Shown in pieces: positions 40,322 through 64,000 of a DNA stretch of 64,000 nucleotides. Source of the DNA: a virus; IMG/VR virus record IMGVR_UViG_3300023199_000051, positions 1 through 64,000 of that record. One strand, written 5' to 3'. Under the pieces are notes generated by a model, which had not been told where the DNA came from, made no database searches, and was given only the letters and a program-made list of their open reading frames with translations. The translations under genes were made by a program, and so were the position numbers. Numbering within the stretch: position 1 is the first letter of the stretch; the number at the start of each line of letters is the position of its first letter.

Positions 40322-43300
40322 TCAGCCGTCTAGCCGGTAGATCACGCCCCCAGATACCCGGCCCTCTATGGGGAGCTTGAGCTTGACCTTCCGCTGGTAG
40401 GTTCCTCGTGAAGTGCGGCCCGTCTTCACGTCAGAGCGAACCGTGATGAAGGCCGCTCCACCCGGCTTGAGGCGGTCCCGAATCTCGCGCAGCAGTCCCG
40501 CTTGTGCCTTCTTCGGCACCGTGTTGAAGACGTAGGTGGCGAGGACCGTGTTGTACTTCGTGTCTGGCAGGTCGAAGGGACCATGGCAGGGGTCGTAGCC
40601 CTTCACCTGAAGACGCTGTCCTCGCAGCCACTCCACATCCGCACCGTGCCCCGAGCCGTAGTCGAGCACCGGTCCGCGAATCAGACCACGCTCATGCAGC
40701 CACCGCACAGGCGCCGAGGACCCGTTGCGGTGCAGAGCAGTCGGACACGACCGGTCGAGGTCCGCTTCAGTCTGCGCAGCAGGCAGCCGTTCGATGGGGC
40801 CAAGGCCCTGCGCGATTTGGTCCTCGGCCTGGCTATGCGCGTGCAGGTGCTTGGTCAGCTCACGAATCTGCAGCACCGGTCTCGCCCCACCTTCAGCCAG
40901 CGCCTCGACACTGCGTAGCATCCGAAGCAGGGGGTCATGCTGCGCCACAAGCGCATCAAAGGCGCCGGGCCGCCCCAGCTGCTGTTCCAGCATTGGGAAG
41001 ACATCATCTTCCTCGCCGACGAAGTGCTGCTCGCAATCGACCCGGAGCGCGCGCATGCACTTGGTGACCCGCTCCCAGTCGCCGGCCTCCGCGTACCGGA
41101 TCAGCGCAGCACACATGCCACGGATCTCATCATGGTCGTCGGTCAACCACTTCACCGGGTTGGAACCAGGAACATAGGGGCACTTCTCCACCCCAGAGTG
41201 TCCACTCTTGTAGGCCGCGGCGACCTGCTTCAGTGCTTGCTGTGCAGGAACACCGTCCTTGATCATCTTGCTCTGCTCGCGCGCCAGCTTCGTGACGGGC
41301 TCACCGATGATGTCCTCATACGACAGGCCGGCACGACGGGCCACGTCGTAGTTGTGCCGCCGTACCGGACTGAAGGTGTCGTCCAGCGTCTGATCTGTCA
41401 GGGGGCCCATCGGCTGCACGTCAACCCAGTGCGGGCCGCCGTACTCCTGGTGGTGCTCGGGGTGGTGCTGTTGCGCCTTCACCTGCTGCGCATACCCACG
41501 CTGCACCCTCTTCACGAAGGGGGACTCCTCGATCAGATCGACCCCCCAGCCCCACTCGCGCTCATGAGACTCGCCGAACTTCGGCCGGATGGTGATGACC
41601 ACTGGCACGGCCGGCAACCCGAGCTGCATGGCCGCCGCGGCGCGGTGCCTTCCCTCGTGACTCGTGATCTGCTTCTTGTCCCGGTCGTACTGCATCCACG
41701 GCACCGGGAAGCGGTCGCCAGACCGCATGGCCTGTGTGTACTGCGCCACCTTGTCAGGCCGAAGGATATCCACGAGATGCTTCAAGGGGGTTGAGGTCAG
41801 CTCCAGGAAGGCAGTCGGCTTCAGGAGGACGTGCACCGTGTTCCGGTCGTCGTACACGATGGGGATGTTGCGCCTTCGATCTTCATAGTCGAACTGCGGG
41901 GGCACCACCTCCGGCTTGTCCTTGAACCACAGCCGCGGCGCCATCTCGGAGATGAAGGTGTAGCGGAGCGGATCTTCAGAGGGCAACGCCTCAACCGACT
42001 CCTTCAGACGCCCAACGGCCGCTGGGATGGTGTCAAGTCCGTAGACCTGCGCGACGGCGCTCCGATGCCAACCATCCCAGATGCCGATCGCCTGGCCCCT
42101 TGGGTCCTCTATGACGACGATCTCCTCGATGTCACCGCGGCGGATTGCCTCTGCCATAGCCGCAGGGTCGTAGCCCCGCTGCTCGTACGCCCACTGCTCC
42201 TCCTCGAACCATTGCTGCCAGTCGTTGAGGTGGTCGAGCTTTGCAACGGGGTACCGCTCCACGCGCCAATCCATCTCTGCGGGATCGGCCTCTGGTGGGT
42301 TGTCGTAGCGGTACGCAGACGCCCACTCGATCTCCTGTGCGGTTGCAGCGCGTGACGCTCCAGCCGGCAGCTTCTCGATCGGCACTGACGCTTGCTGATG
42401 CACACGCCAGGCAGTCACCTGCGCAAATGGGTATTCCTGCGAGTCAGTAGGCACCCAGACATCGAGAACCCACTGATCAGCTCCAGCTGGAGCCCCATCC
42501 GGCTCTCCGGGCCGGATGACAGACGCCCTGATCTGAGCTTCGGCCATCGCTAGGGGCAGGTAGTCCGATTCGTCGGTTGTGGGGCAGAGCCAGCTTCCCC
42601 ACTCTCCTTCTTCCGCCTCCCACGGGGGCTCCTCAGCCCAGCCTCCCCACCCTCGCAGCAGACAGCGCTCACCCCAACCCTCAGTGGTGACCACCCACCC
42701 ATCTTGCAAGTGCTGCTGTGTCTGAGTGCCAAGGGGTATGGACGCGCCATCAACCCCCCTCACAGCACCTAAAACGGCGCCCCACACCGTATTCGGAACG
42801 CCTGAAGGGCGCCTCTTAGGTAGTCCAGCACTTCGGTGGAGAGGGGCATAGGATCTCTGACCACCACCAACCTCGCGCATCTCCTCGAAGTAAGGGGCTG
42901 CTTCGTCCACTGCCGCTTCTACAGTAGCAGCATCGAAGCTGCGCTCAGACGCCCCCTCGATCTCCTGTGCGGTCGCGGCGGCGGGCACAGCGGTAGCTGC
43001 AGCTGGAAGGCAGTCCCGCCCATCGAAGCAGATGCCAGAGTCGAGCACATCTTGAGCTGGAAGGGCCTCGACACCCGACTTGAACTGCTCCAACTGGATG
43101 ACGGGGATGTACCGCAGTCCCAACAGGCGAGCAGCGAAGGCCCGATGCCGTCCATCTACGAACTGGCCGTCGACGAAGATGATGGGCGGCATCTGCATCG
43201 AGGGGGCTTCACCCATGTTCACACCGGCAGCGCGCCAGGCTTCGCGGGCGAAGTAGGGAGAGTCGTACTCCAGCTTGACAGCTGGCTGTTCCCACTTCAA

Positions 43301-44938
43301 GGGGTAGGCGTCTTCCAGCCAGGTGTTCAGGATCTCGCCGGCGCTGCTATGCGGCCCGAGCCCGGCGGTCTGGAGTACCTGCACGATCTCCATGACGGCC
43401 GCGGGGCCCCGCTCGTCCCAGTGCTCCTCGGCGTCAATGTTGGTGGGCATACCCTGTGAGGTGTCTGCACCTGGAAAGTGCTTGCGGATCTCACGCCACA
43501 CCTCATCCATGGGCAGGGCATCCACTGTGACGCGCGTGTCCGAAGGTAGGAAGGCAACGCCGTAGTCCGGGTCTGGCGGGAGCCCGACGTCATCGGTGAG
43601 CGCCTGGAGGATGAACCCGTCCTCCTGGAAGTGCTGCGGCAGGTCGCCCCACCGGATCGTGCGAGATGTTGCAGTGGGCAGCGTCTCGATACCCAGCTCG
43701 CGGAGTAGGGCGTCGTCCTCTGCAGCCTGGGCCTCCACCTTCAAGGCGTGCGCCATACGCATCCAGTGCAGCTCTTCTCCAGACAGCCCCAGCGTTCGCA
43801 ACTCCCCGGCGCTCAGGTCGGTGCCCAGCTCGGGCACGTCGGACCCGGGGGCGTGGCTCACGCCCAGGTCCGTGATGCGCCACTCCCCAGCCGCGTTCCG
43901 CATCACGTTGCCGCCACGGATGTCGTCGGTCCACACCCCGCGCTCAGCGAGCTGTACCAGGGCGCTCCAGAGCAGCCTCACGTTGTCCTCGATGTTGGGG
44001 GCGAAGTAGGCACTCGCCTTGGCAGTGAAGACTTCCACACCCCTACGACTGTGGCGGCCCTCGACAGCTTCGCGTGCGTCGTGCGCCATGCGACGACCGT
44101 GGTTGTCGAGGTAGCGTTCCCCCGATGATGACAAGGGCTCCAAGTGCTCCTGTACGACACCATACAGACGTCTAGGACCCTGGTACACCGATGGAAGCTC
44201 GACCCCCGGCAGTGTGGAAGGGAAGGCGAACACCAGCGGTGCCCGAGCAACGCCCTTGATACCGAGACGTCCAACGAAGGCCCAGGCCGCAGCGTCGGTG
44301 GGATCTCCGGTGATCTTCAACACCCAACCAGGATAGTCAGGCAACGCATAGGCACAGCCGTAGTTGCCGCAGCCGAGCGCCATCGGGTTGTCGTAGCCGA
44401 CGTCGAGGTCGTAGGGCTTACGCTGGAGCATGATCAGGGCGGCGCGCTGCCACTTGTTGAAGTTGTCGCTGCCCCAGTCATGCTTTCCGAGCCCCCGCGA
44501 TTCGGCATAGGTGCGGGGATTGCCCTTTGGAGGGGCGCCACGAACGGGCAGCTCCTCCTGCCTCTTCGCATACCGCTTCAGCTTCGCTGGCTCTGGTGAG
44601 TAGGCCCATGCCGCCAGGGCCAGGTGCCGGCGGGTGGGGCGGCCGTCGTCCTCCCACAGCGGCTCACGGCCCTCCTGAACCTGTGCCATGTGGCGGGCGA
44701 TGAAGGCGTTGCGGCGACTGCGCCAGTGCTGACCGCTGTGACTGTCTTCGGTGAGCTTGTCGGGGTCACCATCAGCGCGGCGGTACGCGGCGATGAAGCC
44801 TCGCTTGCTCCGTGCAACCTTGCTCACTTTGCGATCCTGCATCTGCGGGACCAGGGCTTCGACCATGGTGAGTGGCAGCCATGCACGCTCGCCGGCCGGC
44901 AGCCCCTCGGTCGTCGTTGCGGTGGAGATCAGCTTCAT
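40322..44938 (-). CDS. About 1538-aa polyvalent protein: N-domain, protein kinase, three ParB-like domains, hemerythrin, SAM methyltransferase
   Basis: LGCGNYG/VLKIT/DIRGGN/TDLG; DGRHR, DGWHR, EGRHR; H..HF..EE..H..H..E; VLDYGSGHG..YDP..YVFN. Confidence 0.85.
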   Translation of the reverse strand: MKLISTATTTEGLPAGERAWLPLTMVEALVPQMQDRKVSKVARSKRGFIAAYRRADGDPDKLTEDSHSGQHWRSRRNAFIARHMAQVQEGREPLWEDDGRPTRRHLALAAWAYSPEPAKLKRYAKRQEELPVRGAPPKGNPRTYAESRGLGKHDWGSDNFNKWQRAALIMLQRKPYDLDVGYDNPMALGCGNYGCAYALPDYPGWVLKITGDPTDAAAWAFVGRLGIKGVARAPLVFAFPSTLPGVELPSVYQGPRRLYGVVQEHLEPLSSSGERYLDNHGRRMAHDAREAVEGRHSRRGVEVFTAKASAYFAPNIEDNVRLLWSALVQLAERGVWTDDIRGGNVMRNAAGEWRITDLGVSHAPGSDVPELGTDLSAGELRTLGLSGEELHWMRMAHALKVEAQAAEDDALLRELGIETLPTATSRTIRWGDLPQHFQEDGFILQALTDDVGLPPDPDYGVAFLPSDTRVTVDALPMDEVWREIRKHFPGADTSQGMPTNIDAEEHWDERGPAAVMEIVQVLQTAGLGPHSSAGEILNTWLEDAYPLKWEQPAVKLEYDSPYFAREAWRAAGVNMGEAPSMQMPPIIFVDGQFVDGRHRAFAARLLGLRYIPVIQLEQFKSGVEALPAQDVLDSGICFDGRDCLPAAATAVPAAATAQEIEGASERSFDAATVEAAVDEAAPYFEEMREVGGGQRSYAPLHRSAGLPKRRPSGVPNTVWGAVLGAVRGVDGASIPLGTQTQQHLQDGWVVTTEGWGERCLLRGWGGWAEEPPWEAEEGEWGSWLCPTTDESDYLPLAMAEAQIRASVIRPGEPDGAPAGADQWVLDVWVPTDSQEYPFAQVTAWRVHQQASVPIEKLPAGASRAATAQEIEWASAYRYDNPPEADPAEMDWRVERYPVAKLDHLNDWQQWFEEEQWAYEQRGYDPAAMAEAIRRGDIEEIVVIEDPRGQAIGIWDGWHRSAVAQVYGLDTIPAAVGRLKESVEALPSEDPLRYTFISEMAPRLWFKDKPEVVPPQFDYEDRRRNIPIVYDDRNTVHVLLKPTAFLELTSTPLKHLVDILRPDKVAQYTQAMRSGDRFPVPWMQYDRDKKQITSHEGRHRAAAAMQLGLPAVPVVITIRPKFGESHEREWGWGVDLIEESPFVKRVQRGYAQQVKAQQHHPEHHQEYGGPHWVDVQPMGPLTDQTLDDTFSPVRRHNYDVARRAGLSYEDIIGEPVTKLAREQSKMIKDGVPAQQALKQVAAAYKSGHSGVEKCPYVPGSNPVKWLTDDHDEIRGMCAALIRYAEAGDWERVTKCMRALRVDCEQHFVGEEDDVFPMLEQQLGRPGAFDALVAQHDPLLRMLRSVEALAEGGARPVLQIRELTKHLHAHSQAEDQIAQGLGPIERLPAAQTEADLDRSCPTALHRNGSSAPVRWLHERGLIRGPVLDYGSGHGADVEWLRGQRLQVKGYDPCHGPFDLPDTKYNTVLATYVFNTVPKKAQAGLLREIRDRLKPGGAAFITVRSDVKTGRTSRGTYQRKVKLKLPIEGRVSGGVIYRLDG

Positions 44939-44999
44939 AGAGACCAATCTAGCACTGCGGTCCCCAGCGCGCTCGGAGCTACCAGGCTACACTTCTGGC

Positions 45000-51192: not shown

Positions 51193-51261
51193 AGGTGCGG
51201 GAGGCACCGTGCTAGGTTGAGGCTGCCGTCTCACCAACAGCACCACTCCAGGAACACCGCC

Positions 51262-53802
51262 ATGTCAGACAGGTTCATCCCCCCGCACAACCACTCCGTG
51301 GATGACCTCCCTGTAGGGAAGGGGCCAGGCAAGGTGGCCCTCTGGGTCGATGTCGCGTCCCTGATCAGTGCTCCCTCTCTGGATAATGCCTACCAGAACG
51401 GCAGTGTGATCACCACCACCCCAGGCAGTGGGGACGTGGTGATCGGAGGCGATCAAGACTTCATCCTCTCGACGTCCGGGGCTGTCAACCAGACCGGATC
51501 GGGCCAAGTCACGTTCAGCGGCAACGTTGACGCAGACGCGGGGCTCGACGTTGTTGGAGGCAGCTTCACCCATGCAGCTGGAGGTACAGGTGACGTAGAC
51601 GTGGCCTGGGACTTCTCGGGTGGCGTCACCATCAGCGGCGACAACCTGACCGTCAATGACGGTGTGCCTGTGGTCTTCGGCGACGACAGCAACTGGAGCG
51701 TGCAGTACGACGAGGCGGGTAGTGATGCCCTGGAGGTTGCCGGTGCGGCCCAGACGGCCGACAACACAGCCGGCTACGGTCTCTCCGTCACCGGTAGCCA
51801 GGGTGGATCCACACCAGACGGGACAGCTGCTGGTGATGGCGGTCCGCTGTCCTTCACCTCTGGCGCTGGTGGTGCAGGCAGCGCCACGGGAGCTGGTGGT
51901 GACTCTGGAGACGTGCTCCTCGACGTTGGTGCAGCTGGCGCTGATGGTGGTGGAGGGGCAGGTAGCACGGGCACCGTCAAGATCGGCGGCACGACGGTCA
52001 ACCCGATCGAAGCCACGACGGCTGCCGACGAGCTGACCGCCATCGCCCTGCTCACCAACACCACCGAGTCTGCGGGCTTCTTCGTGGGGTCCAGCGACCC
52101 CAGTGGCACGGTCACTGGGGCCGCCGCCTCGCTGTTCCTACGCGACACCGGAGCTGGCGGCGAGGTCTACGTCAACACCTCAGCCGGCAGCGGTACGACG
52201 TGGACACAGCTCGGGTCTGGAGGCGGCGGCATCGGAGGCAGCGTCGGCACGATAGACAACGCCATCCCCCGCGCGGATGGTGCGGGTGGTTCCACGCTTC
52301 AAGGTGGCGCTTCCAACGACAATGTGATCCTGGAGGACAACGGCCACCTGCGTCCAGAGGTGGACAGCGGCGGCCGGCTCGGTACGGCGACCTTCGGCTG
52401 GCAGGAGCTGCATCTCTCATCCGGCGGTGACATCATCTTCAACAACGACATCACCATCCGAGATGCCTTCGGTCCGCTGTTCTTCGAGGACGCGACGGCC
52501 TACCGGTTCGATTCTGATGTGACTCCCCGGACGGACGGTGGAGGCAGTCTCGGATCGGCCGGTGTCCCGTGGGGCAGTGTCTACATCAACGAGGGTGATG
52601 ACATCAACTGGATTGTCAGCTCGGCGACCGACGTAGCGATCAACCACATCGAAGACAAGCTGACCTTCACCGGCGCGACCATTGGCTACGTCTTCGAAGA
52701 CGGCCCTGTCGGCATCGATCGTCTCGCAGCCAAGCCCGCAGCCATCAACGGCTCCATCCAGCTGTGGGGCGGGCAGATGTCAGGGGGTGTGCTGCAGCTC
52801 GGGATGATCGATGGCATCAACGACTTCGAGCGTGCCGTTGTCGGGGTCTGGGACTTCGGCATCCTACACTCCGCACAGCTCCGTGACTCGGGCTTCTCGA
52901 ACAACCTCTCGATCCGCCAGGCCACTGGATGGTGGTTCCAGGGTGTCGCCGCTCCGACGTCCGGGGACACCTTCACTGTCACCGACGGGTCGACCTCGCG
53001 TGTCTACGGGTTCGACGCTGGCGGTGACGTCGTAGTTGCCCTGGGCGCTGACAACACCGAGACCATGCGCAACTTCGTCGCAGCTGTGAATGGGGACGGG
53101 TCGAGCCTATGGGGAGCACGCTTCATCTCCCACCTGCGAAACGCGGCCGACGGTGCAGTGGTGATGTACCGCCTCGACCAGTCGAGCAACAGCTTCGACG
53201 ACCGGATCTTCGCTTCGCTGTCGACGGGTACCATCCAATACTTCAACCTGGAGAACGACGTCGACTACCGGGCCTTCGGCGTGAGTGGGTCGACCAGCAT
53301 CCCCAGCTCCGATCCGGGCGTCAAGACGTTCGGGCCCGGCCGCCGCTTCAACGAGACGACGGGCGGCCTGGTCTTCTTCAGCTTCCTCGAAGGCCGCATG
53401 TTCTACGCGGACTACACGAGAGCTGAGGGTGCCTGGGAGGAGATCGACCCGATGGTGCGCCGGTTCGTCCGTGTTGCCACGGACAGCAACATCGCCGATC
53501 TGTCAGCAGGTGCCCCTGACACCACCGACATGATAGCCCTTGCCGCTGGGGACCTTGTGCTGGTCCGATCACAGACGGCCACCGCGGAGAACGGCGTGTA
53601 CTTCGTCGAGTCGGTGGGCACGGGCTCGGACGGCACCTGGGAGCGCGTGAGCTGGTTCAACGCTACCTCGGAGGATGGGCTGTCTGCCGGGCTGGAGATC
53701 TACGTCCAAGAGGGCGCTGTCCGCGAGAAGACCACCTACACGCTCACCACGACGGGCGCGGTTACCATCGACACCACAGGCCTCACCTTCGAGGCACTGT
53801 AG
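51262..53802 (+). CDS. Long fibre/spike protein
   Basis: Gly/Thr-rich beta repeats; C-terminal VRVAT...GDLVLVRSQT...ENGVY...W.R...V.EG fibre module. Confidence 0.75.
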   Translation: MSDRFIPPHNHSVDDLPVGKGPGKVALWVDVASLISAPSLDNAYQNGSVITTTPGSGDVVIGGDQDFILSTSGAVNQTGSGQVTFSGNVDADAGLDVVGGSFTHAAGGTGDVDVAWDFSGGVTISGDNLTVNDGVPVVFGDDSNWSVQYDEAGSDALEVAGAAQTADNTAGYGLSVTGSQGGSTPDGTAAGDGGPLSFTSGAGGAGSATGAGGDSGDVLLDVGAAGADGGGGAGSTGTVKIGGTTVNPIEATTAADELTAIALLTNTTESAGFFVGSSDPSGTVTGAAASLFLRDTGAGGEVYVNTSAGSGTTWTQLGSGGGGIGGSVGTIDNAIPRADGAGGSTLQGGASNDNVILEDNGHLRPEVDSGGRLGTATFGWQELHLSSGGDIIFNNDITIRDAFGPLFFEDATAYRFDSDVTPRTDGGGSLGSAGVPWGSVYINEGDDINWIVSSATDVAINHIEDKLTFTGATIGYVFEDGPVGIDRLAAKPAAINGSIQLWGGQMSGGVLQLGMIDGINDFERAVVGVWDFGILHSAQLRDSGFSNNLSIRQATGWWFQGVAAPTSGDTFTVTDGSTSRVYGFDAGGDVVVALGADNTETMRNFVAAVNGDGSSLWGARFISHLRNAADGAVVMYRLDQSSNSFDDRIFASLSTGTIQYFNLENDVDYRAFGVSGSTSIPSSDPGVKTFGPGRRFNETTGGLVFFSFLEGRMFYADYTRAEGAWEEIDPMVRRFVRVATDSNIADLSAGAPDTTDMIALAAGDLVLVRSQTATAENGVYFVESVGTGSDGTWERVSWFNATSEDGLSAGLEIYVQEGAVREKTTYTLTTTGAVTIDTTGLTFEAL

Positions 53803-55504: not shown

Positions 55505-57127
55505 TCAAGGGGCATCCACTGTGCTGAAGCTGAGAGCCCCCAGCGAGAAGAATGTCGTGTCCCCGAGGCGAGGATTGACCCGTCCATTGGCTTCGATGCG
55601 AACGCTTCCAACCGTGGTGGGTGCCCCGCCTGTGATCACAGGCATGTCGACGTTCTTGGAGGGGCGGCACCCTGCCGGCAGGGTGAAGGCTGAAGATCCC
55701 AGCGCACCCCCCTTGATGGTGCCTCTCAGGTAGACAAAGCCCTGAGCGTCCTTGGCGTACTCTGCCTCGTACACGGCCACTCCCCCGTGGTCCTGCCAGC
55801 CATTCTCGAAGCCGAGCGTGTCCCCGACATCCAGCCACAGCAGACCAATTGAGGGAGAGCCGTTTCGGACCTGTGTGAGGTCTGCAGCCTGAGCTACGTT
55901 GTTCGCTCCGCCGTCAGCGCTCACGGCGTTGTTGGTGCCGAAGGCAGTCACCAGGTCCGAGTCTGGGCCCAGGCCCCCCTGCCAGCCATCCTCGGCCTCG
56001 ATCGCGTAGGTCGTGCCCACCTCGCCGTAGAGGTTCGGCAGTGCACCACCGCCATTGCTCCCTTCTCCGCGTGTGTTCATCTTGAACCCGGCACTCAAGG
56101 TGGAGTCGGGATCGAAGAGGAGCGAGTCGTATGCCCCGAGTGCCGCTGCGGCAGCCCAGCTCACGCCATCGAAGAGCTGGTCGTCTGTCATCTCGGTGAG
56201 CACGCACTGGCCTCGGTAGGTCCAGAAGCCGCCAGCCTCACCGCTGATGAATGCCCGCCCGGCTGTCGCGAAGCTGCCATCGAACACGGTGCCGCTGGCT
56301 ATGCGTAGGTTGCCCTTGCGTGTAACCACCGCCATTCCATCACTGGCGCTTCCTGAACACCGGACGTAGCACGTGGTGAGGAACATGGAGCCACCGAAGC
56401 CCCCCCGTACAAGGCTTGTGCGGACGGAGCAGCTCTCCAGGTCGATCTTGTCGCTGGCATTGATCGAGAACACCCGCTTTGCCGCCGGGTTGTCGATGAT
56501 CAGGTCCTTGAAGTTGAGCTGCACGCTGGTCTGGATGATGGTGCTGCCGTCGCTTGAGAGCGACAACGTGGCTCCCAAGGAGAGCAGGTCGATGGTGTCG
56601 GCGGGCGCTGGTGCGAGCAGGGACGTGGACCCGAGCGTGCACCAGATGCGCGTGGTGCCCCCGCCCGTGGCCGTGTTCTTGTAGATCCATCCCCGGACAC
56701 CACTCGGTGCGCCAGATGTGTACTCGATGAGGGTGTCTTTGAGTCCATCCTCGGCCACGGAAAGCCCCGTGACGTCGAGGATGATGCCCCCTTCAGTGGT
56801 CGCAGCCACAACGGCATCGACCGTAGCTGTGTCGGTCACTGTCGGGGTCGGACCCTGCACGGTGATGTTGTTGAACTCACCGAGGACTCGGGGGATCGTG
56901 GCTTCCCCTTCTTGGATGTTGATGGTGACCGTGCTGCTGTTGGCCGTGCCGATGTCCAGCGCGGCTCGCATGATCGTCTCGTAGGGGTTGCTGGCTGAGC
57001 CATCTCCAGAGTCATCACTGCCCGTGTTCGGGTTGACGAACAGGTCAGTGCCAAGACTGGGATCGTTCTCCAGCGGCCGTGAGGTGCCGTCCACAGAGAC
57101 CTCTTGGTTGGGCCGAATCCACGCCAT
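55505..57127 (-). CDS. Spike/fibre protein with beta-helix and C-terminal receptor-binding-type domain
   Basis: LFVNPNTGSD..GDGS..NPY.TI N-cap; C-terminal FENGW...GFVYLRG...FTLPAG.RP. Confidence 0.75.
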   Translation of the reverse strand: MAWIRPNQEVSVDGTSRPLENDPSLGTDLFVNPNTGSDDSGDGSASNPYETIMRAALDIGTANSSTVTINIQEGEATIPRVLGEFNNITVQGPTPTVTDTATVDAVVAATTEGGIILDVTGLSVAEDGLKDTLIEYTSGAPSGVRGWIYKNTATGGGTTRIWCTLGSTSLLAPAPADTIDLLSLGATLSLSSDGSTIIQTSVQLNFKDLIIDNPAAKRVFSINASDKIDLESCSVRTSLVRGGFGGSMFLTTCYVRCSGSASDGMAVVTRKGNLRIASGTVFDGSFATAGRAFISGEAGGFWTYRGQCVLTEMTDDQLFDGVSWAAAAALGAYDSLLFDPDSTLSAGFKMNTRGEGSNGGGALPNLYGEVGTTYAIEAEDGWQGGLGPDSDLVTAFGTNNAVSADGGANNVAQAADLTQVRNGSPSIGLLWLDVGDTLGFENGWQDHGGVAVYEAEYAKDAQGFVYLRGTIKGGALGSSAFTLPAGCRPSKNVDMPVITGGAPTTVGSVRIEANGRVNPRLGDTTFFSLGALSFSTVDAP

Positions 57128-57567: not shown

Positions 57568-57936
57568 CTATCCGACCAGCACGCTCACTTTGAAGCCGCC
57601 CTCGTTGACCGGCACGTTGGAGAGGTCAACGGACACGTTGACGCTGTCTGCCGAGAAGATCGGGGCGTCTGCGGGCATCTGGTTGCCCAGGCTGTTCGAC
57701 CCTCCGTCGGTGCCTGCGACGATGGAGCCGTGTACGATGCTCGGCGTGCGGCCGAGGCCGTGTGCTCCGAGGATTGCTTCGCCGGATCCGCCGTTGCCGA
57801 CCGTACCCTCGACCACAGCGAAGCCTGTGCCTGCGAGGGCGGGGATGTCCGACGTCGCCGGGATCTTGCCGGTGCCTTCCCCCACAGGGAGGTCTTCGAT
57901 GGAATGCGAATGAGGTGGAATGGTGTTGTTGGGCAT
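57568..57936 (-). CDS. Small structural protein with PHSH..DLP.G.G N-terminus
   Basis: Motif shared with two other spike/fibre genes; HGLGRTP..V gp53-like segment. Confidence 0.6.
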   Translation of the reverse strand: MPNNTIPPHSHSIEDLPVGEGTGKIPATSDIPALAGTGFAVVEGTVGNGGSGEAILGAHGLGRTPSIVHGSIVAGTDGGSNSLGNQMPADAPIFSADSVNVSVDLSNVPVNEGGFKVSVLVG

Positions 57937-58323: not shown

Positions 58324-58953
58324 CTAGATGAGGTCGAAGCTGCGGTCGAAGGTCCAGTGCGTACGGAGCTGACAAGTCAGCGTGCCTCCACCCGCATCTA
58401 GGCGGAGTCGCACCTTGTCGAGGACGGGGTCGGTGATCTGCAGGTTGAAGACGCCCGCTGCGCTGATGTTGTTCTGGCGCGTGTTGGTGTCGAGCCAGTC
58501 GGCCGAGCCGTCGTTGAAGCTCGTCACGTCTGCGGTGGCGCCGCTCGTACCGCCGGTGATGGTGTTGCCGACACCGAAGACGAGGCCCGGCGAGACGGTC
58601 GTGATGAACATGGTGCCCGCGCTGTCCGGGGGCCCGGAGACGATGGCTGTGGCACCCGTGGTGCCGTCGGTGATGGTCTCGCCGTCGACGAAGGTGCCAG
58701 AGACGTTGTTGAGGACGAGCAGGGGACCTGCACCCTCCACCGCTGTCTGCACGATGGCATCGAACTGATCACCGAAGCCGTCGACGGGGTGGTCTTCCAC
58801 TTCGAGGACGAAGCCGCCCGCACCGAACCCGCCGAATCCGCGCCCGGTGGCGAACAGCTTCGCGCCAGGCGTGACCTGCGCAGATAGGGCGTCTGCAGCA
58901 GGGATGACGGTGTCTGCTTCTGTCAGCCCTTGGGGCAAGCGATCGAAGGCCAT
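58324..58953 (-). CDS. Beta-sandwich structural protein with two inserted GTF..GETIT.G..GATA repeats
   Basis: Internal duplication; DWLD...KVRLRL resembles the neighbouring gene. Confidence 0.6.
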   Translation of the reverse strand: MAFDRLPQGLTEADTVIPAADALSAQVTPGAKLFATGRGFGGFGAGGFVLEVEDHPVDGFGDQFDAIVQTAVEGAGPLLVLNNVSGTFVDGETITDGTTGATAIVSGPPDSAGTMFITTVSPGLVFGVGNTITGGTSGATADVTSFNDGSADWLDTNTRQNNISAAGVFNLQITDPVLDKVRLRLDAGGGTLTCQLRTHWTFDRSFDLI

Positions 58954-59067
58954 GTGGAACGCTCCTGTTCTTGGCCCCCATGATAGCTCGACACGGCAAG
59001 CACTGCAAGCCGATTAGTACGGGTCTAAGTGGCTTATACAGGACTGTAGACTTCTAGTAGCCTCGGC

Positions 59068-60660
59068 TCATAGCGCAGGCACTGCGATGACGAACTGCAC
59101 ACCGAACGGCGCCCCGTCCCGCTCTGGCGTGATGGTGCGGAAGGTACCCGGCTCGGCATCTTCTGGCGCAAACTGCCGGAACCGAAGCTGGTTGACGGTC
59201 TTGTCCACCTTCCCATACCGGAAGTCGTGATCACTGAGCCAGTCCTTCGCCTTTTGGACGGACCACTCCCCGCGGTCGAAGCGGACAGACTGCACCTTGG
59301 TCGAGCCGTAGAAGCGGCCCGTCTCGGGATCCTGGACGCCCCGCTCGACGAGGTCTTCTTCCACCTCGTACGTGGCCAGGTTGTCCGCTGACAGGGTCTC
59401 CACTGATGCGTGCCGACGTCGGCCGCGACGTGCTCCGCGACGGGGTCGAGCGGCTTCATAGAGGTGCGCTGCGACGGCAGCACCCTCGGGGCTGTGGTGC
59501 AGTCTCCCCTTGTACTCGGAGGACCGCCTGCTGCAGACCCCTTGGCGGTCGATGTACTTGGGATCCGGGTTTCCTCGGCTGTGCTCCACCTGGAGGTAGG
59601 TCCCCGTCCGTGTCTTGCTGATGGTGTACCGCCGCCCGTCGGCATCGTACTTCCACTGCTTGAGCAAGCCTCCCTTCCGGGCGCCATAGGAAGGAGCCAC
59701 AGGCTCCCAGCTGCCGAGGCTTCCTACAGACCCGAGGTCGTGGGAGTTGACGACAGCTTCGTGCAGACGCGCTGCGTCCTGATCGCCCTGTTCGAGCGCC
59801 TTCCAGTACACCTCGACCAGCGGCACGTTGCGAGAGCCGCGCTCCCTCTTCGCTGCGTAGGCGAAGGACTTGGCCTCCTGCTCTACGCGCTCGGGTGAGG
59901 AGGCCCCGATGGCCAGCACCCAGGACTGCGCATCCTGCAGGGCCTCCACGAGATTCCCTGATCCCCAGGTCACCGCCTCCTCTCCGTGAGCATTCAGCTT
60001 CTTCGCGAGCTGCTTGGCTGCTCGGTACCCGAGTGCCTCGGATACGATCTGCCCAGTGGGGGAGACGACGATGTACAGGTTGCCATCCTCCTCGACTTGG
60101 TATGGGCCGCCCACACCCCGGACTTCCAGCTTCTCGACGCCAGGCGCGTACTCTGCGTCCTGTGTCGCGATGGCGCCGGCCTCCAGGTAGTCGAAGTCCG
60201 AGTCATCGGGCTCGAAGGCTTGCCAGTCGACCAGCTTCTCTGTGATGTGCGGCTCCTCACCCCGAAGCTCTTGACTTGCCACCGTGAACACATCCGCGAT
60301 CTGCTGCAGCGTCGACGCTGTCCCTTCACGTGCATCCTCTCGCCACCGGTCGACGCGCTGTCCGACGCGCTGCCGGAGAGTAGAATCCTTGGTCCGCAGG
60401 AACTCTGCGTGCCCCGTGCGGCCATAGGCTGCTGCAAGCACTGGACGCATCCGTGCTAGCGTCTCGTACGCTCCTGGCTGCCCCCCGAAGTTGTCTTCGA
60501 GCCATGTGAGAATGCCCTCACATCGATCAGCACCGTACTGCTTGATGCACTGGCGGAGCAGGGACGCTTGCCGATCGGCAGGCATGCGCAGGAAGCGCTT
60601 GCTGTGGATGGTCCTCCAGATGTTGGAGGGTTGGCGCGGGGTGAGGGTGCGCATGCTCAT
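59068..60660 (-). CDS. 530-aa multidomain hypothetical protein
   Basis: Modular; C-terminal VQSVRF...W....A..WL..H...VD.T...LRFRQ motif. Confidence 0.7.
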   Translation of the reverse strand: MSMRTLTPRQPSNIWRTIHSKRFLRMPADRQASLLRQCIKQYGADRCEGILTWLEDNFGGQPGAYETLARMRPVLAAAYGRTGHAEFLRTKDSTLRQRVGQRVDRWREDAREGTASTLQQIADVFTVASQELRGEEPHITEKLVDWQAFEPDDSDFDYLEAGAIATQDAEYAPGVEKLEVRGVGGPYQVEEDGNLYIVVSPTGQIVSEALGYRAAKQLAKKLNAHGEEAVTWGSGNLVEALQDAQSWVLAIGASSPERVEQEAKSFAYAAKRERGSRNVPLVEVYWKALEQGDQDAARLHEAVVNSHDLGSVGSLGSWEPVAPSYGARKGGLLKQWKYDADGRRYTISKTRTGTYLQVEHSRGNPDPKYIDRQGVCSRRSSEYKGRLHHSPEGAAVAAHLYEAARPRRGARRGRRRHASVETLSADNLATYEVEEDLVERGVQDPETGRFYGSTKVQSVRFDRGEWSVQKAKDWLSDHDFRYGKVDKTVNQLRFRQFAPEDAEPGTFRTITPERDGAPFGVQFVIAVPAL

Positions 60661-60696
60661 GGTGGTGCTCGCAGAGAGGTGGTGGTTGTCTACATC

Positions 60697-61773
60697 CTAA
60701 CCGGCATGCAGCACAGGTACGCGCGTGCTTGGTCCCGATGAGAATCCGAGATCGACGTAGACCAGCTCGCGGACGCCCGAGCTGCTCACACGGGCCATGA
60801 CGTTGTCGCTATGACCATCGGTGTACTCGATGCCCAGGTCGTACATGCAGTCGAGGGCCACCACCAGCGATGACACCTCAGTCCCCCCACGCCACGGAAT
60901 CAGGTAGTCGAGGATGCTACTCGGTGCGTCGTCCATGGCCTCCTCAACCAGCTCCTCGTACTCGTCTTGGGTCATGTCTCCACCTTCCACGTCGGCACGG
61001 CTGTCGTCCAGCGCCCACTCATCGACCCAGTCCTTCTCCCGCTTCGTCAGGGGTTCTAGCGGCTCCATGAGGATGGCATACAGCCCGGAGTCACTGAGGC
61101 CGTACACCGCGTAGATATGCACCACTCCCAGGCACTGTCCGGCCTGCATCACGGTGTGCGCATTGGCGGCTTCGGTCGGATCCCCTGTGATCTTGATTAC
61201 GTAGGGACGCCCCGCGAAGACGCACCCAAACATGCCGCACCCCTGCTGCCTCGGATCGAAACGGAAGCCCAGCTCCTGCAGCTCGAACAGGCCTCGCGCC
61301 GCCTTCTTCCTCCACGCCTTCGTCTCGCGCCGCACGGAGCCGGGCGGCTTCCTCTCACGGCCCTGGGGCGGCCTCGACCGGACGGTGCGTGTCTTGAGCT
61401 TCAGGCTCTCCACCTTTCGGCTCTCCATCCAGGCCCGTGCCTTGTCCTTGTGCTCACCCCTGGTGACAGTGGCCGTCACCTTCATAGCGGCCGCCACAGC
61501 TGCGGCGTCGTCGATCTGCCCGACCCCCGCCAGCCAGTCGGGGATGAGGTCGAGGGGCAGCACGACAGCGCCAAGGCCGGTCGCGATGGTTGCACGGGCC
61601 CACAGCGGTGTCTTGGGGTCCATCATCACGTAGTACAGCGCGACCATGTCGACGCCGAAGGGGACCTTGAGTCCTTGCCGCTTGATCCAGGGCCAGAACC
61701 GCTTCTTCACCTTGCGGATCAGCTTGCGGACCTTGCTCCTCTCCTGCGGTGTCATGTCGCGGTCAATGGCCAT
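60697..61773 (-). CDS. DUF1232 (YkvA-like) plus protein kinase fusion
   Basis: DPKTPLWA...PLDLIPDW..GVGQIDD; GCGMFG, KITGDPTEA, DGHSDN, VDLG. Confidence 0.8.
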   Translation of the reverse strand: MAIDRDMTPQERSKVRKLIRKVKKRFWPWIKRQGLKVPFGVDMVALYYVMMDPKTPLWARATIATGLGAVVLPLDLIPDWLAGVGQIDDAAAVAAAMKVTATVTRGEHKDKARAWMESRKVESLKLKTRTVRSRPPQGRERKPPGSVRRETKAWRKKAARGLFELQELGFRFDPRQQGCGMFGCVFAGRPYVIKITGDPTEAANAHTVMQAGQCLGVVHIYAVYGLSDSGLYAILMEPLEPLTKREKDWVDEWALDDSRADVEGGDMTQDEYEELVEEAMDDAPSSILDYLIPWRGGTEVSSLVVALDCMYDLGIEYTDGHSDNVMARVSSSGVRELVYVDLGFSSGPSTRVPVLHAG

Positions 61774-61775
61774 GC

Positions 61776-61994
61776 TCACCCTGCCTGCATCAGCGCGCCC
61801 ATGACGTCCCCCATCTCTGGGAGCCGCCCCTCGCTGTGTACGACCGTGAACAGCTGATCCATCACCGTGTAGGAGGGATCCCCCTCCGTGATGCGGTGCT
61901 CGGTGACCCCTTCTGAAGACTGCAGGAACAGGGCGAGGCAGCCCTGTTCTCTTCGGATCCGTACTGTGACCTCTTGTACCTCTTCCACTCTCAT
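61776..61994 (-). CDS. Small hypothetical protein
   Basis: AGGGG RBS before ATG 61994. Confidence 0.45.
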   Translation of the reverse strand: MRVEEVQEVTVRIRREQGCLALFLQSSEGVTEHRITEGDPSYTVMDQLFTVVHSEGRLPEMGDVMGALMQAG

Positions 61995-62038
61995 CCCCCT
62001 TGATCCGCCTGCCCGAACCGGGCAGATCTCCGCCCCAT

Positions 62039-64000
62039 TCACAGCCCTTCGAGCTTGCCGACCCGCTTGCACTGGTAGCAACCTGATGCACGCTTGCACC
62101 GCACTCGGTTCCCCGCGTTCACTTGGACCTCGTTCAGCTTCTCACGGTGTCCCTGCTCGCAGGTCGTCCATACGCGAAGGGGCAGCGCTTCGAGTCGCCC
62201 GACATCGGCGCCGGCACTCTTGGACACGCCAAGGTCGATGATCTTCCAGTTGCCCTCGGCGTCCTGCATCACGTTGCCGCCGTGCAGATCGCCCCACTGC
62301 ACACCGACTTCGTTGTGTAGCGCCTCGATGGTCGAGATCACGCGCTTGTACTGCTGGAGCTGATCGCTGTCGAGCATGGCTCGGGCCCAGCCATCCAGGT
62401 TCTCCAGGGCCTCATCCAGCTCGGGATCTTGCCTGTCCCATCCACGGGTGAGGAGGATAGCAGCCAGGGACCCGGCTGCGGATGAGCCCAGGAAGTCCTC
62501 GGCTCTCCAGTCCAGCGGCTTCAGCTTCTGCTGTACGATGGCCCACAGCGGCTCGCCGTCAGGCATGGGAGTCAGCGCGTAGACGCAGTCGATGCGGGCC
62601 AGTGCGGGTAGCTCGGTCCAGTCTTCGTGATCGAGGACCACTTGTGCAGCAGCTGCCTCACTCCAGTCCGTTGTGAGCTTCACGACCTTGTCGGGATCAT
62701 TCGTCAGGTCGTAGACGCAGCCGTAGGTTCCACACCCGAGGTGCTTGTCTCCAAGCGGGTAGCCGTGCTTGGCGAGGATGCTCTTGGCCGCGCGCTCCAG
62801 CCGGGGCCACTGCGCGCGTCGCAGGTAGGCGCTGGTCGACACGACGTCATCCCCATCACCAGAGACGCGGATGCGATCGCCCCCTGCAACGCAGGCTACG
62901 GCACCAGCGGGCAGCCGCTCGATGGCACGCTGTACACCACGCTGCTGCCCCACGCGGTCTTCTGCCTCGCTGAACTTGCGGAAGGTCACCTCAACGGGGC
63001 CTTCGAGCGACCAGTCCCATTCCCAGTCCCGGGTGCCGCTTCCGAAGGCGAAGCCCGTGTCGAAGGTGACGCCGAGCCGGCGCAGCAGCTGCTCGACCTC
63101 GAAGAGGGTGCCCAGCTGCTCGCGGGTGAGGTTGGGCCCGAAGCTGATACCGACATCGACCGGACGTCCACGGTCATCATGTGCGTGACCACGCCCCGAC
63201 TGCTCGGCATCCAGCAGCATCTCGGCGAGCCTGCCCTTGAGCCGCTTCTGTGCACCCCGACGCGCCTTGTGCTCAGTCCTGCCTCGGGCGACCATGTTGC
63301 CGTGCTGGTCATACACCACCGTGTACTTGCGCGTAGCGCCTACGCGGTAGCCTGGCGGTAGTTGCGGCTTCAGAGCGCTCTCGATGGAAGACTGCGGCAC
63401 GCGGAGCGCAGCAACCTGGTCTGTCACGAGCGTCGAAGCGTCGATGACGATCTCACCAGGCCGCGGGTCGACGGGCGGCACCATGCTGGCAAATGGGTAC
63501 GGGCTGCCTTGCGGTGGGAGCACGAACACGAGCTGCTGTTCAGTCTGTGGGTTCATCAGGGCCACGAAACCGCGGGAGTGCGGCGGCGGCTCCACGCGCA
63601 CGTTGAGGAGCTTGAAGCCCACCAGCGGCGGCTTTCGACCCTGCACGCGCTCGATCAAGTCTGACAGGTAGCCCTGCTGTGTCTTCGTGAGCAGATCGAC
63701 AGAGCCAGTCCCTACAGCCGCTCTCATGCGGGGGGTTGGGCTTGTCCCCGATGTCCCTCCGTACTCAGCTTCCAGGTAGTCGAGCCAGCGGTCCGGGAAG
63801 ATGGCCGTTGGGGAGGGGACACTCTTCCTGGGAGCCTTGGGCCGCTGCCGTGCCTTGCTTGTCGCGCCGCCTGGTAGCCCCTCCGCGTAGGCTGCGTACC
63901 TCAGTCGCTTCTTCACAGGCCGTACGACGACACCGACTGCGATGGGAGACGATCGGTGTCGCCAGATCGCATTGAGCGTGCTGGCACGCTTTCGCCACTG
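62039..64000 (-). CDS. Multidomain protein with protein kinase and C-terminal Zn ribbon (5' truncated by window edge)
   Basis: Frame stays open from 63916 to 64000; LGCGTYG, VVKLT, DLHGGN, IDLG; terminal CEQGH...C..CYQC. Confidence 0.8.
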   Translation of the reverse strand, partial: QWRKRASTLNAIWRHRSSPIAVGVVVRPVKKRLRYAAYAEGLPGGATSKARQRPKAPRKSVPSPTAIFPDRWLDYLEAEYGGTSGTSPTPRMRAAVGTGSVDLLTKTQQGYLSDLIERVQGRKPPLVGFKLLNVRVEPPPHSRGFVALMNPQTEQQLVFVLPPQGSPYPFASMVPPVDPRPGEIVIDASTLVTDQVAALRVPQSSIESALKPQLPPGYRVGATRKYTVVYDQHGNMVARGRTEHKARRGAQKRLKGRLAEMLLDAEQSGRGHAHDDRGRPVDVGISFGPNLTREQLGTLFEVEQLLRRLGVTFDTGFAFGSGTRDWEWDWSLEGPVEVTFRKFSEAEDRVGQQRGVQRAIERLPAGAVACVAGGDRIRVSGDGDDVVSTSAYLRRAQWPRLERAAKSILAKHGYPLGDKHLGCGTYGCVYDLTNDPDKVVKLTTDWSEAAAAQVVLDHEDWTELPALARIDCVYALTPMPDGEPLWAIVQQKLKPLDWRAEDFLGSSAAGSLAAILLTRGWDRQDPELDEALENLDGWARAMLDSDQLQQYKRVISTIEALHNEVGVQWGDLHGGNVMQDAEGNWKIIDLGVSKSAGADVGRLEALPLRVWTTCEQGHREKLNEVQVNAGNRVRCKRASGCYQCKRVGKLEGL

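What the first reader, a model, noticed from the sequence alone, without database searches (positions are those of the whole stretch)
40322..64000. Recurring [VIAL]-E-x-L-P motif at domain boundaries: candidate polyprotein processing or cargo-targeting system
Seen: in 40322..44938 an exact E-x-L-P occurs 7 times: TEGLP (~44895-44912), QEELP (~44543), IETLP (~43673), VEALP (~43055), IEKLP (~42362), VEALP (~41978) and IERLP (~40778). Variants VDALP and VEKCP (~41174) also occur. The sites mostly sit at the edges of recognisable domains (before and after the kinase, after ParB domains, before hemerythrin, before the MTase). The 62039..>64000 protein has AEGLP, IERLP (just before its kinase) and LEALP (just after), and ends in LEGL. 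The 60697 protein has VESL between DUF1232 and the kinase, and the 59068 protein has VEKL and VETL between modules. A rough composition estimate gives about one chance hit in about 2200 aa versus 10 seen. Known: T4 gp21 and phiKZ gp175 head proteases cut virion proteins after Glu. Inference: these genes are polyproteins packaged in the virion and cut after E into separate effectors, or the motif is a packaging tag.
Basis: partly seen in the sequence, partly recalled or inferred. Interest (0 to 1): 0.9.

Follow-up and report, generated by a model that had tools for sequence, protein, structure and literature searches.

The report
Junction motif in phage effector polyproteins
Two giant multi-enzyme proteins of an uncultured 178-kb phage carry the short peptide [V/I/L]-Glu-x-Leu-Pro at the borders of their enzyme modules; this looks like a cutting or recognition signal that would let one gene deliver many separate effectors, but no cutting has been shown.

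Summary
E-x-L-P occurs 7 times in the 1541-aa protein (40322-44947, minus strand) against 0.69 expected. It occurs 6 times in the neighbouring ORF, which is really 3057 aa long (62039-71212). The rest of the proteome has about 0.46 per 1000 aa. Codons differ between copies, so the signal is in the protein.

All 7 sites in the 1541-aa protein lie within 7 residues of a module border defined independently, by the termini of stand-alone homologues, Pfam limits or an AF2 model (P about 4e-7). The flanked modules are barely alike, so copying alone does not explain the identical 5-mers.

The looser items (VESL, VEKL, VETL) are not above chance, and VDALP lies inside a fold.

These are polyvalent proteins (Iyer 2017) encoded among tail genes. 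Cleavage is plausible but unproven:
- No T4-type (S77), HK97-type (S78) or MPTase protease was found.
- No close relatives exist in which to test conservation.
- The motif does not fit L/I-x-E.

Homologous modules in other phages are bracketed by a different Pro-ending motif, R-x-x-N-P, with module shuffling at those points. That suggests lineage-specific junction codes.

This scan has already noted such junction codes, with other motifs, on other DNA.

The parts
40322..44947 (-). P0001, a 1541-aa polyvalent protein. The start is probably the ATG at 44938. Order of modules: leader, DUF6321-like module, truncated kinase, ParB/Srx-like 1, unknown module, ParB/Srx-like 2, ParB/Srx-like 3, hemerythrin, SAM methyltransferase.
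44897..44911 (-). TEGLP (residues 13-17), the end of an N-terminal leader. Stand-alone homologues of the first module begin at residues 16-21 (94 of 120; mode 19).
44561..44896 (-). Module 1 (residues 18-129), DUF6321-like. More than 120 stand-alone homologues of about 98-120 aa; their C-termini project to residues 120-136 (mode 123).
44546..44560 (-). QEELP (130-134), the junction between module 1 and the kinase. Its Pro lies 58 residues before the G-loop GCG, the same spacing as IERLP in the 3057-aa paralogue.
43826..44455 (-). Kinase module (about residues 165-374). It ends soon after the DLG motif. Paralogues are in the 3057-aa ORF and in P0003.
43676..43690 (-). IETLP (420-424), junction. 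It is a low-pLDDT coil directly before the confident domain in the AF2 model.
43073..43675 (-). ParB/Srx-like module 1 (425-625, motif DGRHR). Eight homologues; the AF2 domain has pLDDT around 90.
43058..43072 (-). VEALP (626-630), junction. The C-termini of 7 of 8 homologues project to residues 623-631.
42380..43057 (-). Unknown module (631-856). No homologues and no confident model.
42365..42379 (-). IEKLP (857-861), junction. The stand-alone homologue P0099 aligns from residue 865.
41996..42364 (-). ParB/Srx-like module 2 (862-984, motif DGWHR).
41981..41995 (-). VEALP (985-989), junction. The C-terminus of P0099 projects to residue 984.
41360..41980 (-). ParB/Srx-like module 3 (about 990-1196, motif EGRHR). 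The homologue P0137 aligns to 1003-1161.
41177..41191 (-). VEKCP (1253-1257), a variant with Cys in place of Leu, 7 residues before the Pfam start of the hemerythrin domain. It is a possible degenerate junction and is not counted in the statistics.
40814..41158 (-). Hemerythrin HHE domain (1264-1378).
40781..40795 (-). IERLP (1385-1389), junction. The N-termini of 103 methyltransferase homologues project mostly to 1388-1399 (mode 1397).
40325..40765 (-). SAM-dependent methyltransferase module (1395-1541).
62039..64000 (-). The last 653 aa of a 3057-aa ORF that runs on to genome position 71212. Contents: unknown region, kinase, Cys-rich tail. NUDIX (residues 2210-2324) and three more E.LP sites lie outside the window.
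63872..63886 (-). AEGLP (residues 2443-2447 of the 3057-aa protein), in a basic, Pro-rich stretch.
62909..62923 (-). IERLP (2764-2768). Its Pro lies 58 residues before the kinase G-loop.
62180..62194 (-). LEALP (3007-3011), directly after the kinase core. The paralogue P0003 ends naturally at this aligned position.
62042..62053 (-). C-terminal LEGL followed by the stop codon. The protein ends on the motif without its Pro.
60697..62091 (-). P0003, DUF1232 plus a kinase paralogue. At the aligned junction it has ERKPP instead of E.LP. Its VESL is not significant.
59068..60660 (-). P0004, 530 aa, no family match. Its VEKL and VETL are not above chance.
51217..53802 (+). Tail-fibre-like protein, given as context for a virion-gene neighbourhood.
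55505..57127 (-). Minor-tail-like protein, in the same minus-strand gene row as the 3057-aa ORF.

Best explanation
P0001 and the 3057-aa protein are polyvalent proteins: strings of independent effector modules made as one polypeptide by a tailed phage. The modules include a kinase, three ParB/Srx-like modules, a hemerythrin, a methyltransferase and NUDIX. The peptide [V/I/L]-E-x-L-P-(small residue) forms almost the whole linker between modules. It also ends a short N-terminal leader on P0001. The most likely reading is that it is the recognition site of a dedicated, still unidentified endopeptidase. That enzyme would cut the chain into separate modules and remove the leader, in the capsid or after injection.

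Shown: the motif, its enrichment, its position at module borders, and the independence of the modules.

Inferred: cleavage, which bond is cut, the protease, and packaging into the virion.
For: 1. Enrichment is about 10-fold over shuffles and over the rest of the proteome.
2. All 7 sites in P0001 lie 0-7 residues from independently mapped borders, P about 4e-7. The borders come from 120 stand-alone homologues of module 1, 103 methyltransferase homologues and 8 ParB1-type homologues, Pfam limits of hemerythrin and the AF2 model, where IETLP is a low-pLDDT coil before the confident domain and VEALP sits at its end.
3. The modules flanked by identical VEALP show no significant similarity to each other (z = 2.0). 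In the two kinase paralogues (31% identity) the motif's Pro lies exactly 58 residues before the G-loop. Both points suggest the motif is kept by selection.
4. The motif also stands where no linker is needed. One case is the end of the leader on P0001 (10 residues up to the Glu, 14 up to the Pro), which homologues lack; the conserved ERAWLPL lies downstream of the leader and upstream of the next start codon, so the leader is translated. The other is the natural C-terminus LEGL-stop of the 3057-aa protein.
5. In other phages the same modules are bracketed by a different motif, R-x-x-N-P. Module order there is shuffled, with 30 of 80 BLAST segment ends within 5 residues of an NP (5.7% expected). 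Fused homologues of module 1 show NP at 10 of 19 junctions. A lineage-specific code of this kind is what co-evolving protease and sites would give.
6. The genes lie among tail genes, and a DarB-like protein is present. Processing of polyvalent proteins has been proposed before (PMC5512222).
Against: - No cleavage data of any kind.
- No protease can be tied to the motif. Pfam S77, S78, MPTase-PolyVal and Transglut_core give no hit in the genome. The candidates are leads only: a transglutaminase-like Cys peptidase at genome 97121-98071 and three HExxH proteins.
- The motif geometry differs from the known Glu-directed head proteases (PMC9026906, PMC10052503).
- The motif is absent from residues 640-2007 of the 3057-aa protein and from the 2517-aa DarB-like protein. 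The ORFs of the presumed head region show no exact [VIL]E.LP.
- P0003 has a decayed version (ERKPP) at the aligned place upstream of its kinase.
- No close relatives were found, so conservation between genomes could not be tested.
Confidence: 0.45

Rival explanations
1. The motif is recognised but not cut. It would be a short linear docking or packaging signal, or a preferred structural linker (helix stop plus Pro). It would keep modules independent, or bind a common partner such as a packaging adaptor, a chaperone or the proteins' own kinase. The proteins would act as intact beads on a string.
For: - The motif lies in coil after helices in the AF2 model.
- N4 vRNAP, ArdC and TraC1 polyvalent proteins are transferred uncut (PMC5512222).
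- No protease was found.
- Ser or Thr often follow the motif.
- The motif at the N-terminal leader and at a C-terminus fits a tag as well as it fits a cut site.
Against: - A pure linker does not explain the leader or the C-terminal LEGL.
- Ordinary linkers are not held to an exact 4-5 residue pattern across unrelated modules.
- Large parts of the 3057-aa protein and the DarB-like protein manage without the motif.
Confidence: 0.3
2. The motif is a relic of how the genes were built. Modules would have been copied or recombined together with a flanking joint, so the motif marks old cassette borders and has no present function.
For: - Sequence after two sites is similar: AATAQEIE-G/W-AS follows sites 627 and 858.
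- Both VEALP copies follow ParB-like modules with a similar K-x-x-VEALP-x-x-D context.
- Cassette-like small genes lie next to the large gene, as described for polyvalent kinase loci (PMC5512222).
- Module shuffling at NP motifs is seen in other phages.
Against: - The modules have diverged beyond detectable similarity while the 5-mer stays exact.
- Codons differ between copies, so there is no DNA homology to recombine on.
- The motif flanks unrelated module types: DUF6321-like, kinase, hemerythrin, methyltransferase.
- The spacing is conserved in kinase paralogues that share only 31% identity.
Confidence: 0.13
3. A chance cluster of a Pro/Glu/Leu-rich pattern in a GC-rich genome.
For: - The motif was chosen after looking at the sequence.
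- E, L and P are common residues here.
- Another tripeptide, NTV, is as enriched in P0001 (4 against 0.07).
Against: - 0 of 5000 shuffles reach 7. The family-wise estimate is about 1% for the count alone.
- Independently, P is about 4e-7 for the placement at borders.
- A second protein shows the same pattern.
Confidence: 0.02
4. A co-translational event: a 2A-like peptide-bond skip or programmed pause at [V/I]-E-x-L-P-(A/G). This resembles the eukaryotic-virus 2A signature D-[V/I]-E-x-N-P-G-P. Modules would be released without a protease.
For: - There is only a formal resemblance of the motif, including the NP-ending code in other phages. The 2A consensus is quoted from general knowledge.
- No protease was found.
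Against: - 2A skipping is known only on eukaryotic ribosomes and needs NPGP (general knowledge).
- The residue after Pro is variable here.
- No conserved upstream nascent-chain element is seen.
Confidence: 0.02

Closest known systems
Polyvalent proteins of phages and conjugative elements (Iyer, Burroughs, Anand, de Souza, Aravind 2017; PMC5512222)
   Same: - One polypeptide carries many unrelated effector domains: a kinase lacking the C-lobe, ParB-like modules, a methyltransferase and NUDIX.
- Smaller cassette-like genes lie beside the large gene.
- The genes are near virion genes.
- Processing into separate domains has been proposed.
   Different: - That paper proposes processing by built-in zincin (MPTase) domains. 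None is found here.
- Its Pfam models Kinase-PolyVal and ddrB-ParB do not match.
- In the passages read, it describes no discrete peptide marking every junction ('linker' occurs 0 times, 'cleavage site' once).
T4 gp21 / phiKZ gp175 / SPN3US gp245 prohead proteases and T4 capsid-targeting sequences (PMC9026906, PMC10052503)
   Same: - A short Glu-containing site is repeated in proteins that are packed in the head and ejected.
- T4 internal proteins carry a 10-residue N-terminal leader that is cut after Glu. P0001 has a leader with Glu at position 11 from the ATG.
   Different: - No S77 homologue is found.
- The known sites are L/I-x-E or A-x-E with nothing required after the Glu. Here the hydrophobic residue is next to Glu, and Leu-Pro follow.
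- No recognisable head protein of this phage carries the motif.
Polyproteins of eukaryotic RNA viruses (3C / NIa-type sites)
   Same: One repeated short motif at each junction between functional units made from one ORF.
   Different: Those are replication or capsid polyproteins with the protease encoded in the chain. Here the units are accessory effectors of a dsDNA phage, and no protease domain is recognised in the chain.
Border motifs of polymorphic toxins (CdiA VENN, Rhs PxxxxDPxGL); quoted from general knowledge
   Same: A short conserved peptide marks where an exchangeable module begins. Spare cassettes lie nearby.
   Different: Those motifs mark a single border before the C-terminal toxin. 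Here a motif brackets each of many modules.
Phage P1 Dar proteins (DarB, DdrB), packaged anti-restriction proteins
   Same: - Large multi-domain proteins that are packed into the head and injected.
- This genome has a DarB-like 2517-aa protein.
- P1 DdrB is processed before packaging (PMC5512222).
   Different: The DarB-like protein here has no E-x-L-P. The P1 proteins are not known to carry a repeated junction motif.

Membership tests
Polyvalent proteins (Iyer et al. 2017) | 2 to 15 functionally unrelated domains in one polypeptide | tested here: met
   P0001 has at least 8 modules: DUF6321-like, kinase, three GRHR-motif modules, an unknown module, hemerythrin and methyltransferase. The 3057-aa ORF has NUDIX plus a kinase plus large unknown parts.
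Polyvalent proteins (Iyer et al. 2017) | Encoded by a phage or mobile element, typically near virion or late genes | tested here: met
   The genome is an IMG/VR virus record. Tail-fibre-like and minor-tail-like genes lie between and beside the two genes. A beta-helix protein is at 13297-14799.
Polyvalent proteins (Iyer et al. 2017) | Kinase of the Kinase-PolyVal type, with the C-terminal lobe lost | tested here: inconclusive
   Pfam PF18762 gives no hit in the genome. However, all three paralogues end shortly after the DLG motif, and P0003 ends there naturally. There are weak Pkinase/APH hits and a hit to a PHROG family annotated as a phage protein kinase that inhibits host transcription.
Polyvalent proteins (Iyer et al. 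2017) | DdrB-like ParB domain | tested here: not met
   PF18763 and PF02195 give no hit. A profile of the module against PDB sequences gives only Spo0J at E = 0.18 and SbnI at E = 0.83, both at the GRHR motif. ParB/Srx-like therefore remains a motif-based label.
Polyvalent proteins (Iyer et al. 2017) | Zincin-like MPTase domain as the predicted processing enzyme | tested here: not met
   PF18818 gives no hit. HExxH occurs in three other proteins, not in the two polyproteins, apart from a chance HEGRH inside the third GRHR module.
Substrates of T4-type (S77) prohead proteases | An S77 protease encoded by the phage | tested here: not met
   PF03420 gives no hit at E <= 1. S78 gives none either.
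Substrates of T4-type (S77) prohead proteases | Site of the form L/I-x-E or A/S/G-x-E (P3-P2-P1) | tested here: not met
   Here the hydrophobic residue is directly before Glu. The residue two before Glu is G, G, P, S, P, A, R, T, R or Y. Known sites are taken from PMC9026906 and PMC10052503.
Substrates of T4-type (S77) prohead proteases | The same site present in the capsid, scaffold or portal proteins of the phage | tested here: inconclusive
   Head genes could not be identified: no PHROG or Pfam hit in the 90-106 kb gene row. No ORF there has [VIL]E.LP.
Substrates of T4-type (S77) prohead proteases | Cleavage observed | not testable with these tools
   Needs proteomics of virions or infected cells.

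The most novel reading that the evidence does not exclude
Phage polyvalent proteins would use lineage-specific 'junction codes': short peptides ending in Pro that bracket every exchangeable effector module. The code is [V/I/L]-E-x-L-P in this phage and R-x-x-N-P in others that carry the same methyltransferase and DUF6321-like modules. Each code would be read by a co-evolving phage protease of a family not yet recognised. One gene could then deliver a customisable set of separate enzymes, and modules could be swapped between phages only together with, or after adaptation of, their junction peptides.
Probability: 0.35. Interest if true: 0.8.

Novelty: new variant of a known kind. Interest (0 to 1): 0.6.

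Why it matters
Polyvalent proteins are widespread in phages and conjugative elements. Whether, where and by what they are cut into working parts is an open question.

A defined junction peptide makes that question directly testable by mass spectrometry, site mutants and a protease hunt. It gives a sequence rule for splitting giant unannotated phage proteins into modules. It could also point to a new protease specificity.

The parallel R-x-x-N-P code in other phages suggests a general principle rather than a quirk of one genome.

Tried and rejected
- DNA-level repeat: rejected, because the codons differ between copies.
- Internal starts or ribosome-binding sites at the junctions: no consistent start codon or Shine-Dalgarno sequence follows the motifs (read).
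- Close relatives, to test conservation: none found in the 5.8-billion-protein word search, IMG/VR, JGI metagenomes, GTDB genomes or GenBank phages.
- Distant kinase loci L008-L011 and the ParB-like locus L015: they lack the motif.
- Homologues of the methyltransferase, ParB1-type and DUF6321-like modules: they lack [VIL]E.LP at their junctions.
- Protease search by Pfam families S77, S78, MPTase-PolyVal and Transglut_core: negative.
- Flank hydrophobicity as a linker test: not informative, because the linkers are only about 10 residues long.
- Recent internal duplication as the cause: rejected, because module pairs are not significantly similar.
- P0004: a search of the ESM Atlas (predicted structures of metagenomic proteins) gave nothing usable.
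- NP as a second code in this phage: counts are near expectation. Two NP dipeptides do lie in junction regions of P0001, at residues 143 and 1263.

Full report
**What the DNA is.** The window is the first 64 kb of a single 178,164-bp contig with 64% G+C, held as an IMG/VR virus record. The genome carries phage-type replication genes: a DNA polymerase with intein-like inserts, helicases, a primase, and a Sak4-like annealing protein. It also has a DarB-like 2517-aa protein, a tail-fibre-like protein, a minor-tail-like protein and a beta-helix protein. No head gene, terminase or portal was recognised by PHROGs or Pfam. I read it as a very divergent tailed phage.

**The two proteins.** ORF 40322-44947 (minus strand) encodes P0001, 1541 aa.

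P0001 contains:
- a DUF6321-like module (weak Pfam hit, but more than 120 stand-alone homologues);
- a kinase that stops soon after DLG;
- three modules with a D/E-G-R/W-H-R motif;
- a hemerythrin domain and a SAM methyltransferase.

The 3057-aa protein has NUDIX and a paralogous kinase. A third kinase paralogue is P0003. This is the architecture that Iyer et al. called polyvalent proteins, including a kinase without its C-lobe and smaller cassette-like genes beside the large one (PMC5512222). However, their Pfam models Kinase-PolyVal, ddrB-ParB and MPTase-PolyVal do not match anything here. ParB_N does not match either. The 'ParB' label therefore rests on the motif and on a weak profile match to Spo0J (E = 0.18).

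**Is the motif real?** Yes.
- E.LP occurs 7 times in P0001 against 0.69 in composition-preserving shuffles (0 of 5000 reach 7).
- [VIL]E.LP occurs 5 times against 0.13.
- It is the most enriched a.bc pattern in P0001. About 1% of shuffles give any a.bc pattern that strong. Over six pattern shapes, 3 of 300 shuffles reach the best observed P.
- The 3057-aa protein has 6 against 1.3 (P about 0.003), three of them in its last 653 aa.
- With ORFs filtered by third-position G+C, the other 143 ORFs hold 20 in 43,142 aa. The two proteins therefore hold 13 of 33 sites in 10% of the residues.
- Codons for Glu, Leu and Pro differ between copies, so the signal is at protein level.

The looser items are not supported. 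[VIL]E.L without Pro occurs 91 times in the genome, so VESL, VEKL and VETL in P0003 and P0004 are at chance level. VDALP (475-479) is a beta strand inside the confident fold and lies in a column conserved in homologues.

**Does it sit at module borders?** I mapped borders without using the motif.
- Module 1: of 120 stand-alone homologues, 94 begin at the position of P0001 residues 16-21 (mode 19), just after TEGLP (13-17). Their ends project to 120-136 (mode 123), just before or at QEELP (130-134).
- First GRHR module: the ends of 7 of 8 homologues project to 623-631, at VEALP (626-630). Small homologues begin at 421-430, at IETLP (420-424).
- AF2 model built on that alignment: a confident domain (pLDDT about 90) spans residues 425-546 and 582-628. 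IETLP is a low-confidence coil directly before it and VEALP is at its end. Regions without homologues were not modelled usefully.
- Second GRHR module: the stand-alone homologue P0099 aligns to 865-980 and would end at 984, between IEKLP (857-861) and VEALP (985-989).
- Last junction: hemerythrin ends at 1378 (Pfam). 103 methyltransferase homologues begin mostly at 1388-1399 (mode 1397). IERLP is at 1385-1389.

All seven sites are 0-7 residues from such a border. Random placement would give this with P about 4e-7. In the 3057-aa protein, LEALP follows the kinase core directly, at the position where P0003 ends naturally. The other sites there could not be checked, for lack of homologues.

**Is it only a copying relic?** Probably not. 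The modules that carry identical VEALP at their ends are not significantly similar to each other (z = 2.0; only the catalytic motif aligns between modules 1 and 3). The motif flanks unrelated folds. In the two kinase paralogues (31% identity) the motif's Pro lies exactly 58 residues before the G-loop GCG. Some local copying is visible: AATAQEIE-G/W-AS follows two sites.

**Features that a plain linker does not explain.**
- P0001 begins with a leader that its stand-alone homologues lack: 10 residues from the ATG up to the Glu of TEGLP, 14 up to the Pro. The conserved ERAWLPL lies upstream of the next possible start codon, so the leader must be translated.
- The 3057-aa protein ends in LEGL-stop, the motif without its Pro. 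About 0.9 of 182 ORFs would end in E.L by chance.

**A parallel in other phages.** The nearest homologues of the methyltransferase module include proteins of 2248-3186 aa (P0012, P0015, P0021). They lack E.LP but are enriched for R..NP (7 against 0.31 in P0012). That motif brackets the methyltransferase module on both sides in P0012, P0015 and P0008.

These three giants share modules in different order, and 30 of 80 BLAST segment ends lie within 5 residues of an NP (5.7% expected, P about 2e-17). Fused homologues of the DUF6321-like module show NP at 10 of 19 junctions. P0012 lies on a phage-like contig where neighbouring proteins also carry R-x-x-N-P.

So the same modules are bracketed by different Pro-ending peptides in different lineages. 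Earlier notes of this scan report junction peptides of other kinds in giant phage proteins on other DNA. These are unverified AI notes, not independent proof, but the pattern here is of the same kind.

**Mechanism.** My best reading (0.45) is that the motif is the site of a dedicated endopeptidase that separates the modules and removes the leader. That fits the border placement, the apparent selection, the terminal copies and the lineage-specific codes.

It is unproven, and several things count against it:
- No S77, S78, MPTase or Transglut_core protease is found.
- Candidate proteases are leads only. They are a transglutaminase-like Cys peptidase at 97121-98071, supported by Atlas look-alikes, and three HExxH proteins. 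One of the HExxH proteins is the GHKL-HExxH protein next to the 3057-aa gene; it gave only a weak GHKL ATPase (HATPase_c) Pfam hit.
- The geometry differs from L/I-x-E and A-x-E sites (PMC9026906, PMC10052503).
- Residues 640-2007 of the large protein and the DarB-like protein lack the motif.
- P0003 has ERKPP at the aligned place.

Which bond would be cut is unknown. The LEGL terminus and the homologue termini allow a cut anywhere within the motif.

The main rival (0.3) is an uncut recognition or linker peptide. A building relic (0.13), chance (0.02) and a 2A-like translational event (0.02) are less likely.

**Novelty.** The protein class and the idea of processing are published. To my knowledge and in the passages read, a discrete peptide bracketing each module is not. 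This instance has a motif different from those the scan noted before, and it comes from a phage with no close relatives.

Noticed in passing
proteins P0012, P0015, P0021, P0008, P0019; locus L012:3082-12331: Giant homologues (2248-3186 aa) from other phages carry an enriched R-x-x-N-P motif (7 against 0.31 expected in P0012). It brackets the methyltransferase module, stands at the N-terminus of small proteins (MRANP...), and coincides with the breakpoints of shuffled modules (30 of 80 BLAST segment ends within 5 residues). Neighbouring proteins on L012 also carry it.
   Followed up: partly
proteins P0191, P0197, P0213, P0218, P0219, P0225, P0234, P0244, P0270, P0273: When the DUF6321-like module is fused to other domains in other phages, an x-x-N-P peptide lies at the junction in 10 of 19 cases. 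P0001 itself has NP in two junction regions (residues 143 and 1263), a few residues after QEELP and VEKCP.
   Followed up: partly
window 13297-14799 (-), 51217-53802 (+), 57568-57936 (-); genome 108716-110299 (+): Four proteins share an N-terminal P-H-x-H-x-[IV]-x-D-L-P-x-G motif. Two are tail-fibre-like or beta-helix proteins. This is a different motif, and it accounts for the IEDLP hit at 57568-57936.
   Followed up: partly
window 9-304 and genome 177823-178162 (L007:17823-18162): Both contig ends are arrays of a 15-bp tandem repeat (about 19 and 23 copies) that would encode pentapeptide repeats (A-D/N-L-x-x). The 'direct terminal repeat' call, and hence the completeness estimate, may rest on this repeat.
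   Followed up: partly
genome 81436-88989 (-) (L002:1436-8989): A 2517-aa DarB-like methyltransferase-helicase protein (PHROG E = 4e-152 and 5e-61), without any E-x-L-P.
   Followed up: partly
genome 97121-98071 (-) (L002:17121-18071): A 316-aa protein with a D-C-E-G-L-A Cys motif. Its Atlas look-alikes are transglutaminase-like cysteine peptidases, many from tailed phages. It gives no Pfam hit. It is a candidate protease in an unannotated gene row.
   Followed up: partly
window 4476-5096 (+): A 206-aa protein with an N-terminal membrane helix and a metzincin-like HELGHALGFGH motif. It also carries TESLP at residues 55-59, the same 5-mer as in the 3057-aa protein. It lies beside a weak VanY-like gene, so it may belong to a lysis cassette.
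   Followed up: no
genome 71663-74734 (+) (L001:9663-12734): A 1023-aa protein with a weak GHKL ATPase match (also a weak RIIA-like PHROG match) and an HEIAH motif. It is transcribed divergently from the 3057-aa gene.
   Followed up: partly
genome 90-106 kb, minus strand: A row of about 14 genes without any PHROG or Pfam match. No terminase, portal or capsid gene was recognised anywhere in the genome, although tail-type genes are present.
   Followed up: partly
genome 134490-139451 (+) (L005:490-5451): A 1653-aa DNA polymerase ORF with matches to a LAGLIDADG homing endonuclease and to intein-bearing proteins, suggesting one or two inteins.
   Followed up: no
window 40322-44947 (-), P0001 residues 719, 1036, 1466, 1475: The tripeptide N-T-V occurs 4 times against 0.07 expected, inside modules. 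Unexplained; possibly chance.
   Followed up: no
window 17768-19027 (+), 6468-7562 (-), 31725-32582 (+), 11905-12897 (+): A ComM/Mg-chelatase-like ATPase, ThyX, a GmrSD_N (DUF262) protein and a tyrosine integrase are encoded in the left part of the window.
   Followed up: no
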